Positions 21,001 to 24,000 of a DNA stretch of 64,000 nt are shown here, one piece after another. Position numbers: made by a program. Position 1 is the stretch's first letter; the number at the start of each line of letters is the position of its first letter. The DNA is from Escherichia coli (GTDB lineage: Bacteria; Pseudomonadota; Gammaproteobacteria; Enterobacterales; Enterobacteriaceae), in assembly GCF_044324875.1 (NCBI RefSeq), contig NZ_CP172185.1; one strand, 5' to 3'.

Positions 21001-24000
21001 CGTCACATTCCCCGTATCAGTTTCTCTTACCGTAAGAACGGCTCTGGCTGGCGATAAAACTAACCCGGTCGGGCATTCCCACAGTCTTTAGAGAAAATGT
21101 AATTTACCCCCTGAAACGCGGGCTGTTCCCCCGTCACCTGCGCGCGAAAAACTCACCGTTTTTTGTGCACGCACGAAATCGCCCTCCGGGCGCGCCAGTA
21201 CTGGGCCGGATGGGCAAAAAGTTACTCTAAAAAATTGTGCAAATTTGTGCACTTTTGTGCAGATGGACAATAGCGTCAAAAAGAGTGCTTTTGAGAGATT
21301 TTTTATGGCAACTGCGCCGCGTGTATTACGTTTTTTACCATCCCCGCCGCGCATGTACATACTTCATTTTTCTGCCAGACAACAGGGCAACTCCCCGTGA
21401 CTGACAGCCCCAAAAAATCAATGATTGATGTTGCATTTTTGTTAAAGGTTAGACCAGTTGTTTTGGGGCTCTGCCTCATAATCCGGTGGGGGGTGCGCAA
21501 ACCGGTTACAACGGTTACAACACTCAAAAACACCACTTAACAGCATGATTTTAATGGATATTGTTTGTAACCGCTTTGCGGTTACACTGCGGTTACAACG
21601 GTTACAGGTTTCAAAAAGTACTTTATTATCAATCAATTAAAAACTTAACCTGTAACCGCCTGTAACCTAACAAAACGGTTACATGTAACCGCGTTGTAAC
21701 CGCTTTTGTAACTCATCGGACCAGTTATAATATATTGATATATAATACAAAAATAAGTAATTTTAAATTTGTAACCGTTGTAACCGCTTTGCGCACCCCC
21801 CCCCAAACTTTAGCGCGACCCTTTAAAATGTTAATTAAACTCACTTACTCTGTATCTCTCTAGTTAACTCTCTGTTATTGAAATGTATCTCTCCACTGTT
21901 TCACTCTTTCTGATAATCAGGGGAAGCAAAAAATTGATGGCGGCACTACTGCAATATGGCCACCATTGCATTGCTGTTACCGTTGGTTCTGGCCAACAAA
22001 AAAGGTCAGCGGGAAACTGACCTCTTTTGCTGTGAATGCGGCGTTCTGCGGGTTACTCTGCTGGCTCTTTTTCTTCGGTGATCACTATGTTGGCTACCGG
22101 GTTAAATCTCATGGCATCTGCCAGATAATCCGGTGCAAAATGTGCGTATGCCATAGTCTGCTGAATTGTCGCATGCCCAAGGATTTTTTGTAGCGCAAGA
22201 ATGTTGCCACCGTTCATCACAAAGTGACTGGCGAATGTATGCCGCAATACATGCGCAGCCTGCCCCCTCGGTAAATCGGGTTTTATTTTTTTTAATGCCC
22301 GGCAAAACTCTCTGTACTTCACATCAAACAGTCGCCCGGTTTCTTTTGTTTTTACGGCATCGCATATTTCCTGCGACACAGGCACCGTTCTTTTTCTACC
22401 GTTTTTGGTTTCCAGAAACGTTATTCTGTTATGAACTATTTGCTCTCCATGCAATCTGCTGGCCTCACTCCAGCGGGCTCCGGTACAAAGACACAAGAGC
22501 GCAACCCTTCGTTGATCTCCATTCAGCCCGTCAAGCAACAATGTGACCTCGTTTTTTGATAAAAAGGCCATTTCCCGCTGCTTTACATAAAGAACAGGAA
22601 TACCACGAACCGGATGCTCTGCATCCCACAAACCGATCTTTTTCAGGGCTGTAAACATCCCCGATAATCTGTTCATGTATCTGTTTGCTGAGGACGGCTT
22701 TAATCCTTCCGCAATTTTCTGCGATCGCCATGCAATGATTTTTAATTTGTTGAGTTCTGCCGCAAACATGTCAGCTCCAAGCTCATTAATAATTTTGCCA
22801 AGTTGCTGTTTATCCGTGTTTGCCTTTCGCCTGTGCTGACCGTGATAGACCCACCACAATTCCAGTAAATCGCTAAGCGTTCTCCGGTCGCGATAGCCCT
22901 GTATAAACTCGCGCTTTTCGGCGTTCGCTATGATGTACCGTTCAGTTGCTGTAGCTATCGATTTTTTGTCAAATATTCTTCTGATGCGCTTCCCTTTACG
23001 TCCGCATGGCCTGATATCGAGCAGCCACCGCCCATCATGCATCTTTCTGATCGGCATGTTTAACTCCCCTCCTTGTAACTGAATATCCGGCATTTCAGTA
23101 CTTCCGGCTCTCTGGCCTCGGCGACCCCTCTTCCGGCGTTTGCCTGTCTGGAGACCTCACTACGAATGGTTTTGCGGCCTGTCAAAGGTCGGGAACGTCC
23201 GGCTGCGAGCAACTCAATCATTTCGCGGTCAGTTCGGATCTCCACGCGGTGAATAGCGGCAGCCTGTGCCAGTTGCGGAATACTGATAGCAATCCCCTCG
23301 CGGCATCCCTTGCCGTAGTGGTTTACACCGTATTTTGTTATGCCGTCCAGATAGTCGAACGCCTCCCAGAACGCTATTACTTCCGGCAAGTCATCCGTTA
23401 CCGCTTTAACTTGTTCCGCTGCCATTCGTTCCAGTTCCTGGCATGTGGCATTAAGCCATTCATCCGGGATATCAATAACGCATTTCAGCGCCCTGACCAG
23501 CGCAATAAGTTGCGCGTGATTTTTGGCAATACGGGGATGGAGAATATTTTCGCAACCGCAAAGGCGGGTCGTTTCAGGCTCTGAGAGCGCCAGAAACATT
23601 TCCATAATTGCCCGTTCACGGCTGACTGCCCGATGAATAAACCCTGACACCTTCTCAACGGGGTAGAGTTCCAGTCGTCTCGCCGCCAGGCGGGTATCAG
23701 GTGAATGGCGTTTTTTATCGGTGTATATGCGTATCAGGCGCTCAATAATTGCAAGTGAGGCGTTTACCCTCGCATTCTGTGCAATCACGATAGCGCCCTT
23801 AAAATCCGGGTCATAGGTGTTGTTATTGTTGGTCTTAACGCCACGAACGCCGATACCGCCGCCGTTATAGAGGCTTTTCAGGTTATCGAAGTCAAACGCA
23901 CCTCTTTTTTGCGCATTGCCTCCCCGGTCTGCTTCAATCAGAACAACAGGTAATCCGGCGACCTGTCCAAAGGTGCGCTTCCAGCCCGCCTCTGATCCTT

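What the first reader, a model, noticed from the sequence alone, without database searches (positions are those of the whole stretch)
21485..21805. ~250-bp segment bounded by ~34-bp near-perfect inverted repeats with G/C homopolymer tracts, packed with GGTTACA motifs, beside a P2-type tyrosine recombinase
The architecture (long terminal inverted repeats around a short non-coding segment, adjacent to a recombinase gene at 22053-23057) resembles an invertible switch. It could instead be an iteron origin or an attP-like arm-site array. The flanking G6 and C9 tracts are themselves slippage-prone. None of this is explained by the annotated genes, and a related palindrome (cggtta-atg-taaccg) recurs at ~27528.
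Basis: seen in the sequence. Interest (0 to 1): 0.6.

Follow-up and report, generated by a model that had tools for sequence, protein, structure and literature searches.

The report
Satellite phage replication origin with iterons
The repeat-packed 320-bp segment is most likely the replication origin of a P4-like satellite prophage, recognised by the satellite's own primase-helicase; it is not an invertible switch, so it is an ordinary kind of element in a family where it had not been assigned.

Summary
A 36-nt inverted repeat (21485-21520 / 21769-21804) encloses 13 exact GGTTACA sites. It lies in a ~15-kb P4-like satellite island at tRNA-Arg(CCT), next to a second tyrosine recombinase (INT2) and an 889-aa primase-helicase.

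The switch reading is not supported. 65 E. coli genomes carry the segment, 64 of them as one colinear piece. Its polarity relative to the primase gene is the same in Izhakiella, Psychrobacter and two phages. The G/C tracts change by substitution, never in length.

The origin reading is supported.
- The same ~270-bp layout of sites (>> gap >>><> gap <<<> gap <<), with two IHF-consensus sites in AT-rich gaps, occurs in every clear relative that encodes this primase family. This includes phage phiCTX, where it is annotated only as "R3 repeats", and phage ESSI2_ev239. P2, which replicates with gpA, has none.
- In 15 E. coli loci the iteron class (CGGTTACA, A/GGGTTACA, A/GGGTCACA) matches the primase's C-terminal ~120 aa one-to-one. 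That domain is predicted to be a winged helix.
- The INT2 gene lies between the primase end and the iterons, yet INT2 types reassort freely against iteron class.

It works like P4 ori/crr with the alpha protein, but in a different primase family. No binding or replication experiment exists.

The parts
21485..21804 (.). Whole IR-bounded iteron module, the putative origin of replication of the satellite.
   Evidence: The module aligns as a unit in 9 E. coli loci (A2). The same site layout is seen in 7 elements from 4 genera and 2 phages.
21485..21520 (+). Left outer arm: G tract, then TGCGCAAAC, then two direct iterons (21504-21510 and 21513-21519).
   Evidence: Seven arm positions differ between loci yet stay matched between the two arms of each locus.
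21769..21804 (-). Right outer arm, the inverted copy of the left arm: two iterons (21770-21776 and 21779-21785), GCTTTGCGCA, then the C9 tract.
   Evidence: C-tract length is constant in 11 loci.
21566..21613 (+). Inner iteron group. One inverted site at 21566-21572. Three direct sites at 21580, 21591 and 21600, about 10 nt apart. A degenerate copy GGTTTCA at 21607-21613.
21651..21713 (-). Second inner iteron group. Minus-strand sites at 21651, 21661, 21684 and 21695. One plus-strand site at 21677. A degenerate copy at 21707-21713.
21627..21639 (+). IHF-consensus site TATCAATCAATTA in the central AT-rich gap (25-27% GC).
   Evidence: together with the next site, 2 of only 7 matches in 64 kb. 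Columns are invariant in A2. The gap corresponds to that of an annotated IHF site in phiCTX. GC content.
21728..21740 (-). Second IHF-consensus site TATCAATATATTA. It sits inside the most AT-rich stretch (21720-21779, 15% GC), the best candidate for the DNA-unwinding element.
23060..25729 (-). Primase-helicase of 889 aa with a Zn-finger-like CxxC, a Toprim domain and a Walker A motif. This is the proposed initiator. The mechanical ORF extends to 25753.
   Evidence: phrog_1139 at E=2e-297. Pfam Toprim_2/3. It is 41-51% identical to the primases of phiCTX, RSY1 and ESSI2_ev239.
23063..23407 (-). C-terminal 115 aa of the primase: a predicted winged-helix domain, the proposed iteron reader.
22053..23057 (-). 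INT2, a P2-type tyrosine recombinase between the primase and the module. Its role is unresolved, and it is not the iteron reader.
   Evidence: Three INT2 types (52-59% identical) reassort against iteron class.
22003..22023 (+). GC-rich hairpin between the INT2 stop and the module. The scan called it terminator-like on the + strand, but the primase-INT2 operon is on the - strand, where the stem is followed by CCTTTTTTGTTGG.
   Evidence: (I8).
27526..27542 (.). Palindrome TTCGGTTAATGTAACCGGAA upstream of the leftward operon. It is probably an unrelated operator.
   Evidence: It is conserved as CCGGTTAATGTAACCGG in a locus of another iteron class. The GGTCACA-class island has no such region.
21336..21356 (-). 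Possible cos-like sequence GCGCGGCGGGGATGG, about 130 bp from the module. Unverified.
   Evidence: It resembles P2/P4 cos (GGCGAGGCGGGGAAAG) and phiCTX cos (GGCGTGGCGGGGGG). It is conserved in L001, L017, L039 and L040.

Best explanation
**What it is.** The segment 21485-21804 is the replication origin of a P4-like satellite prophage integrated at tRNA-Arg(CCT); it could alternatively be an origin-plus-enhancer in one piece, like P4 ori and crr combined.

**Proposed mechanism (inferred).**
1. After induction, the satellite's 889-aa primase-helicase binds the roughly 15 GGTTACA iterons through its C-terminal winged-helix domain.
2. The iterons are arranged in a fixed order: a pair at each end in inverted orientation, and two inner groups.
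3. Two IHF sites in the AT-rich gaps bend the DNA, so the bound proteins form a compact complex.
4. That complex melts the 85% AT stretch at 21720-21779.
5. The same protein then acts as helicase and primase there.

**What is shown.**
- The anatomy of the segment.
- Its conservation together with this primase family.
- Its fixed polarity relative to the primase gene.
- The one-to-one match between iteron class and primase C-terminus.
- The independence of the iterons from the neighbouring recombinase.

**What is inferred.** Binding, melting and origin activity are inferred by analogy with P4 alpha acting at ori/crr.
For: 1. **Context.**
   - The island spans att cores at 14745 and 30079.
   - It carries int, an alpA-like gene, an Icd-like gene, the primase, an ogr/delta-like gene and a gpN-like capsid gene.
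   - In P4 itself the 300-bp crr, with 10 short repeats in both orientations, lies directly downstream of alpha and next to int/attP.
2. **Conserved layout.**
   - The pattern >> gap >>><> gap <<<> gap << spans 254-275 bp.
   - It has the same polarity relative to the primase gene in E. coli satellites, Izhakiella, Psychrobacter, phage ESSI2_ev239 and phage phiCTX.
   - The iteron itself differs between them: GGTTACA, GGTCACA, CRTCACA, GGTAAT.
3. **The module follows the primase family.**
   - In ESSI2_ev239 it lies 4.5 kb from the primase and is separate from that phage's integrase and its TGTGGAC arm repeats.
   - In phiCTX it is a block distinct from attP and its R1/R2 repeats.
   - P2, which uses gpA rolling-circle replication, has no such cluster, while the same scan recovers P4 ori and crr.
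4. **Natural experiment in 15 E. coli loci.**
   - The primase C-terminal group matches the iteron class in 15 of 15 loci.
   - The first 770 residues of the primase stay 90-99% identical.
   - INT2 lies physically between the primase C-terminus and the iterons. INT2 type b is found with all three iteron classes, type c with two, and type a with one.
5. **All copies change together.** Between classes every copy changes in concert (alignment A2).
6. **C-terminal domain fold.**
   - The model is confident (pLDDT 91) and has winged-helix topology.
7. **IHF sites and AT-rich DNA.** Two IHF-consensus sites lie in invariant columns of the AT-rich gaps (15-27% GC), in the gaps that correspond to those holding phiCTX's annotated IHF sites.
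Against: - No experiment shows binding or origin activity for this family. I found none in the searchable literature.
- The primase-iteron match could partly reflect shared ancestry. Only six distinct primase/INT2 combinations were seen, so independent events are few.
- No clear iteron cluster appeared within 2 kb downstream of the primase in more distant relatives such as Pseudomonas, Xanthomonas and Sterolibacterium, or anywhere in phage RSY1. Repeats there may be too degenerate to detect, or absent.
- The module also lies near int/attP and near cos in the phages, so synteny alone does not separate origin from recombination or packaging roles.
- There is no DnaA box in the module.
Confidence: 0.77

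Rival explanations
1. Packaging-recognition region. The repeats and IHF sites would be cosB-like binding sites for the helper phage's small terminase subunit, lying next to cos.
For: - In phiCTX the module lies about 170 bp from cosR.
- In the window a cos-like GCGCGGCGGGGATGG lies about 130 bp away.
- Repeats plus an IHF site is the layout of lambda cosB (established knowledge).
Against: - P2 and P4 use the same type of terminase and share a cos, yet have no such cluster next to cos.
- Iteron classes differ among satellites of one species and match the satellite's own primase C-terminus, not a helper protein.
- In L002 the module sits between the primase and INT2.
Confidence: 0.08
2. attP-like arm-site array or recombination site for the adjacent P2-type recombinase INT2. 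This could serve as an alternative integration site or a multimer-resolution site.
For: - INT2 is always within about 0.7 kb of the module in the enterobacterial satellites.
- IHF sites and inverted arm repeats are typical of attP.
- In the phages the module neighbours int/attP.
Against: - INT2 types that are only 52-59% identical, including in the N-terminal 60 aa, sit beside identical iteron classes.
- INT2 proteins 90-98% identical sit beside different classes.
- Close INT2 relatives have their own TGTGGAC arm repeats right after the gene (ESSI2_ev239; Yersinia L011).
- No such repeats lie near INT2 in the window.
- The island is integrated through the other integrase at argW.
Confidence: 0.06
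3. Invertible switch. INT2 would flip the 248-bp interior between the 36-nt inverted repeats to change expression or replication polarity.
For: - Long terminal inverted repeats beside a tyrosine recombinase.
- The size is similar to fimS.
- The arms co-evolve.
Against: - One orientation in all 65 E. coli genomes, 64 of them as a single colinear piece.
- The same polarity across genera and phages.
- Promoter-like hits are at chance level.
- The arms consist largely of the iterons themselves.
- Phages that have the module lack an adjacent INT2-type arrangement.
Confidence: 0.03
4. Structure-based element. The dyad symmetry would let the region extrude a cruciform, or fold as a long hairpin in single-stranded DNA. 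That structure, rather than duplex iterons, would be the signal, as at a single-strand initiation site.
For: - The ssDNA fold is -80.5 kcal/mol, z = -12.2 against shuffles.
- Compensated changes keep the arms complementary.
Against: - The inner groups are not mirror images: >>>< versus <<<>.
- Iteron spacing of 9-11 nt and the concerted change of all copies fit protein reading of duplex sites.
- Arm matching is equally explained by the same protein binding both arms.
Confidence: 0.05

Closest known systems
Satellite phage P4 ori and crr, bound by the alpha primase-helicase (type I iterons TGTTCACC)
   Same: - It belongs to a satellite of P2-like phages.
- It is a 300-bp non-coding block of about 10 short (7-8 bp) repeats in both orientations, downstream of a Zn-finger/Toprim/P-loop primase-helicase and near an integrase.
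- The initiator carries a separate C-terminal DNA-binding domain. For P4 alpha this is established knowledge; here it is predicted.
   Different: - The primase is a different family. BLASTP finds only the Toprim and Walker A segments.
- The iteron sequence differs.
- There is one cluster here instead of two placed 4.5 kb apart.
- This module has long terminal inverted arms, two IHF-consensus sites and a layout conserved across genera. P4 crr is instead two 120-bp direct repeats.
phiCTX 'region containing R3 repeats' (35100-35390, with two annotated IHF sites) and the equivalent block in Escherichia phage ESSI2_ev239
   Same: - It is a homologous module, with the same number, order, spacing and polarity of sites.
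- The IHF sites lie in the same gaps.
- These phages encode the same primase family, 41-51% identical.
   Different: - The iteron sequence differs: GGTAAT in phiCTX and CRTCACA in ESSI2_ev239.
- In the phages the module lies several kb from the primase, between attP and cos.
- The phiCTX record gives it no function.
SaPI/PICI origins bound by Rep helicase: iteron sets flanking an AT-rich region
   Same: - It is a satellite-encoded initiator-helicase with a C-terminal domain, paired with iterons flanking AT-rich DNA and showing element-specific specificity.
   Different: - There is no sequence homology.
- In SaPIs the primase and the helicase are separate proteins.
- The host lineage and the helper type are different.
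fimS-type invertible elements (FimB/FimE)
   Same: About 300 bp bounded by inverted repeats, beside a tyrosine recombinase gene.
   Different: - Only one orientation is seen in all genomes.
- There is no internal promoter.
- The repeats are 36 nt long and built from iterons.
- The recombinase type is uncoupled from the segment.

Membership tests
Iteron-type replication origin with a cognate element-encoded initiator | Dense cluster of short repeats in non-coding DNA | tested here: met
   13 exact and 2 one-mismatch GGTTACA sites lie in 282 bp. 0 of 100 shuffles reach the window total.
Iteron-type replication origin with a cognate element-encoded initiator | AT-rich unwinding region and architectural-protein sites within the cluster | tested here: met
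   The stretch 21720-21779 is 15% GC. Two IHF-consensus sites lie in invariant alignment columns. This is a consensus match only; binding was not shown.
Iteron-type replication origin with a cognate element-encoded initiator | Linked initiator gene with a DNA-binding domain | tested here: met
   The primase-helicase is 1.3 kb away. Its C-terminal domain has winged-helix topology at pLDDT 91. Fold matches are weak.
Iteron-type replication origin with a cognate element-encoded initiator | Iteron sequence co-varies with the initiator's DNA-binding domain | tested here: met
   15 of 15 E. coli loci match one-to-one, across an interposed gene that reassorts freely.
Iteron-type replication origin with a cognate element-encoded initiator | Supports initiator-dependent replication, and the initiator binds the repeats | not testable with these tools
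   This needs plasmid replication assays, EMSA or footprinting.
P4 ori/crr (alpha protein with type I iterons) | Type I iteron TGTTCACC and an orthologous alpha protein | tested here: not met
   The iteron is different. BLASTP to P4 alpha finds only the Toprim and Walker A segments.
Invertible DNA switch | Both orientations occur among genomes or reads | tested here: not met
   64 of 65 E. coli genomes align as a single colinear piece across both flanks, and the 65th matches only the module, on the same strand. Polarity is the same in 7 elements from 4 genera and 2 phages. Within-population read data were not available.
Invertible DNA switch | An orientation-dependent promoter or coding segment lies inside | tested here: not met
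   Promoter-like hits number 3 against 2.3 +/- 1.5 expected. There is no conserved ORF.
attP arm-site array of the adjacent P2-type integrase | Repeats match the integrase's specificity and change with the integrase | tested here: not met
   INT2 type is uncoupled from iteron class. Relatives of INT2 use TGTGGAC arm repeats.
attP arm-site array of the adjacent P2-type integrase | Core site shared with a bacterial attB, with islands flanked by split halves | not tested
   The island here is flanked by tRNA-Arg att cores that belong to the other integrase. No search was made for split modules.
Phase-variable homopolymer tract | Tract length varies among strains | tested here: not met
   In the 11 E. 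coli loci compared, including the window, the G and C tracts differ only by substitutions, and the spacing is constant within each class.
cosB-like terminase recognition region | Present next to cos in phages and satellites that share the terminase type | tested here: not met
   P2 and P4 have no such cluster at cos. Direct terminase binding is not testable here.

The most novel reading that the evidence does not exclude
The 36-nt terminal inverted repeats could be more than outer iteron pairs. They could be sites at which the neighbouring recombinase INT2 acts. The origin would then be a discrete cassette that can be relocated or flipped, for example during induction, setting replication direction relative to cos. 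Two observations are not excluded by my evidence. In L002 exactly the IR-bounded block sits on the other side of INT2. And the arms co-evolve at positions outside the iteron cores.
Probability: 0.05. Interest if true: 0.6.

Novelty: new member of a known kind. Interest (0 to 1): 0.3.

Why it matters
- **It assigns a function to an unexplained block.** The same block has stood in the phiCTX record only as "R3 repeats". The assignment covers the whole phiCTX-type primase-helicase family, which is found in P2-family phages of Pseudomonas, Ralstonia and Escherichia and in P4-like satellites.
- **It points to a specificity determinant.** The C-terminal ~115 aa of the primase appears to carry at least three natural specificities in E. 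coli alone. Such variation could let related satellites, and their helpers, replicate in one cell without cross-talk, which is testable.
- **It has practical uses.** It helps annotate satellite islands, and it offers small orthogonal initiator/origin pairs.
- **It is not a new principle.** P4 and the SaPIs already show the same logic.

Tried and rejected
- **Rfam scan of 21000-22300:** only a chance snoRNA hit, E = 0.97.
- **DNA search of the module against plasmids and phages:** no match even at blastn sensitivity. The relatives were found through the primase protein instead.
- **PDB sequence search with the primase:** nothing useful.
- **Iteron clusters downstream of the primase in four distant loci (Sterolibacterium, Xanthomonas, a gammaproteobacterium, Erwinia MAG):** none convincing. 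None was found in RSY1 either.
- **DnaA boxes and P2-type TGTGGAC arm repeats in or near the module:** none.
- **Whether the 27528 palindrome follows the iteron class:** it does not, and it is missing from the GGTCACA-class island.
- **Literature searches for an origin assigned to this primase family or to the phiCTX R3 repeats:** nothing relevant. The 1993 and 1999 phiCTX papers are not in the searchable library.
- **Plasmid hits to the primase:** these are circular phiCTX-like phage genomes, not plasmid replicons. They gave no independent proof of origin activity.
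Full report
**1. The observation**

The sequence is as described. A 36-nt inverted repeat (21485-21520 / 21769-21804, 94% complementary) encloses 248 nt. GGTTACA occurs 17 times in the window against 6.4 expected, and no shuffle reaches 17. Thirteen of those copies lie in 21504-21785, on both strands. Two more one-mismatch copies lie in the same block. The left arm begins with a G tract and the right arm ends with C9. The neighbouring ORF at 22053-23057(-) is a tyrosine recombinase, called INT2 below. 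The region matches no Rfam family. Promoter-like hits do not exceed chance.

**2. Context**

The segment lies inside a satellite prophage. A tRNA-Arg(CCT) gene lies at 30080-30154. Its 3' end, ATGGTGTCCCCTGCAG, recurs with one deletion as ATGGTGTCCCTGCAG at 14745. The island is therefore about 15.3 kb, including an IS21-family insertion (istA/istB, 18345-20763). Reading leftward from the tRNA, it carries:

- a P4-type integrase;
- an alpA-like regulator;
- an Icd-like gene;
- small ORFs;
- an 889-aa primase-helicase (Toprim plus Walker A; phrog_1139 at E=2e-297);
- INT2;
- the repeat block;
- an ogr/delta-like zinc-finger gene;
- a P2 gpN-like capsid gene, preceded by a 236-aa ORF with no family match;
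- a MazEF toxin-antitoxin pair.

**3. Orientation and tract length**

The block occurs in 65 of 5426 complete E. coli genomes, always on the chromosome. In 64 of them it aligns as a single colinear piece across both flanks. The 65th (L002) matches only the IR-bounded block, on the same strand. I fetched 17 of these loci. All aligned copies have the same orientation. In the 11 loci compared, including the window, the G and C tracts differ only by substitutions, never in length. So there is no sign of inversion or of slippage.

**4. The module is conserved with the primase family**

A scan of one genome per species with the primase found 35 loci. Protein searches found the same primase family in P2-family phages, namely phiCTX, RSY1 and relatives and Escherichia phage ESSI2_ev239, at 41-51% identity.

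Written in the sense of the primase gene, the sites read:

`>> (about 55 bp) >>>< > (about 45 bp) <<<> (about 50 bp) <<`

They span 254-275 bp. This layout holds in three E. coli satellites, in Izhakiella, in Psychrobacter, in ESSI2_ev239 and in phiCTX. The polarity relative to the primase gene is the same in all of them. The iteron itself differs: GGTTACA, GGTCACA, CRTCACA or GGTAAT.

- In phiCTX the block is annotated only as a "region containing R3 repeats" with two IHF binding sites. It is separate from attP and its R1/R2 repeats.
- The window has perfect IHF-consensus sites in the corresponding two gaps, at 21627-21639 and 21728-21740. These are 2 of only 7 matches in 64 kb. They fall in invariant alignment columns and in AT-rich DNA of 15-27% GC.
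- P2 replicates with the gpA nickase and has no comparable cluster. The same scan recovers P4's ori and crr.

**5. Which protein reads the repeats**

Fifteen E. coli loci give a natural experiment.

| Iteron class | Primase C-terminal group | INT2 types found with it |
|---|---|---|
| CGGTTACA | group 0 (89-100% identical within the group) | a, b, c |
| A/GGGTTACA | group 2 (98-100% identical within the group) | b, c |
| A/GGGTCACA | group 1 (a single locus) | b |

- Between classes, all copies change together.
- The last ~120 aa of the primase fall into three groups that are 67-73% identical to one another. These groups match the iteron classes in 15 of 15 loci.
- The first 770 residues of the primase stay 90-99% identical.
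- INT2 lies between the primase C-terminus and the repeats. It comes in three types, 52-59% identical to one another, and these reassort against iteron class as the table shows.
- A reader of the repeats should co-vary with them. The primase C-terminus does and INT2 does not.
- Close relatives of INT2 have their own arm repeats (TGTGGAC) immediately after the gene, in ESSI2_ev239 and in a Yersinia locus. No such repeats lie near INT2 in the window.

**6. The C-terminal domain**

**7. Comparison with P4**

The annotated P4 record shows crr as a 300-bp block with 10 type I repeats in both orientations. It lies immediately downstream of alpha and next to attP and int. A second cluster, ori, lies 4.5 kb away. 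The position and the logic here are the same.

The family is not the same.

- BLASTP between the two primases finds only the Toprim and Walker A segments.
- The iterons differ.
- There is a single cluster here.
- This module has terminal inverted arms and a fixed layout, rather than two 120-bp direct repeats.

It works like P4 ori/crr, but it is not a member of that family.

**8. The inverted arms**

Seven positions in the 36-nt arms differ between loci yet remain matched between the two arms of each locus. Several of them lie outside the iteron cores, for example TGCGCAAAC/GTTTGCGCA versus TGCGGAAAC/GTTTCCGCA. As single-stranded DNA the block folds at -80.5 kcal/mol, z = -12.2.

The simplest reading is that the same protein complex binds both ends in inverted orientation. 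A role for cruciform or hairpin structure, or for gene conversion between the arms, is not excluded.

In L002 exactly the IR-bounded block lies on the other side of INT2, between INT2 and the primase. The block therefore behaves as a discrete unit.

**9. Rivals and loose ends**

- **Packaging role.** This is the most serious rival, because the module lies near cos in phiCTX and near a cos-like sequence here. However, P2 and P4 lack such a cluster, and the repeats follow a satellite-encoded protein.
- **INT2.** Its function remains unknown. Multimer resolution or an alternative integration route are guesses.
- **The 27528 palindrome.** It keeps its sequence in a locus of another iteron class and is absent from the GGTCACA-class island. 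I do not link it to the module.
- **Distant relatives.** In the four distant loci examined closely I saw no clear cluster within 2 kb downstream of the primase. The generalisation therefore holds for the enterobacterial satellites, Psychrobacter, ESSI2_ev239 and phiCTX, not necessarily for the whole family.
- **Experimental support.** The searchable literature held no experimental origin assignment for this family.

**10. Verdict**

The switch reading is not supported. It is a new member of a known kind, of modest interest. Its main value is to assign a function to a conserved block in phiCTX-type phages and their satellites, and to point to the primase's C-terminal domain as the specificity determinant.

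Noticed in passing
window 15618-17599 (-): The satellite carries its own P2 gpN-like major capsid gene. It is 423 aa with an N-terminal extension of about 118 aa (phrog_70 at E=6e-78; NCBIfam major_capsid_P2, below cutoff). A 236-aa ORF with no family match precedes it. Classical P4 has sid/psu and no capsid gene. In related islands (L002, L049) the capsid gene sits at a different place, upstream of the Icd-like gene.
   Followed up: partly
window 18345-20763: An IS21-family insertion (istA 548 aa, istB 332 aa) lies between the ogr/delta-like gene and the ORF at 21088-21360. It is absent from the 99%-identical island in strain ECCNB12-2 (L001).
   Followed up: partly
window 21336-21356 (-), inside the annotated 90-aa 'hypothetical protein' ORF 21088-21360: GCGCGGCGGGGATGG resembles the cohesive-end sequences of P2/P4 and phiCTX. 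It is conserved in four related islands. It may be the satellite's cos, and the overlapping ORF may be spurious (no family hit).
   Followed up: partly
window 21851-21860 and 21884-21893: An exact 10-nt direct repeat, TGTATCTCTC, occurs twice 33 bp apart, in the conserved spacer between the module and the INT2 stop codon. Function unknown.
   Followed up: no
window 28571-28589 (-), just downstream of the P4-type integrase gene: TGTGGACA and CGTGGACA lie 11 nt apart, with further one-mismatch copies at 28825 and 28877. The motif resembles the arm repeats seen next to P2-type integrases in ESSI2_ev239 and Yersinia L011.
   Followed up: no
L047:1-80 (= end of NC_049392.1, Escherichia phage ESSI2_ev239): The deposited phage record ends in what looks like Illumina/Nextera adapter sequence (CAAGCAGAAGACGGCATACGAGAT...CTGTCTCTTATACACATCT in reverse). 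The record's termini are therefore not the real genome ends.
   Followed up: no
L013, L015, L031 (Pseudomonas citronellolis and P. nitroreducens), about 7715-8590: The primase homologue matches as two ORFs (4992-7715 plus about 7762-8590). This suggests an insertion or a split C-terminal region in these Pseudomonas elements.
   Followed up: no
related islands L003/L041 (hpt locus), L039/L043 (dsdC locus) and L002 (pao/yagU locus): The same satellite family occupies at least four chromosomal sites in E. coli with different P4-type integrases. It carries different addiction modules at the distal end: MazEF, Hok/Gef or YefM/YoeB.
   Followed up: partly
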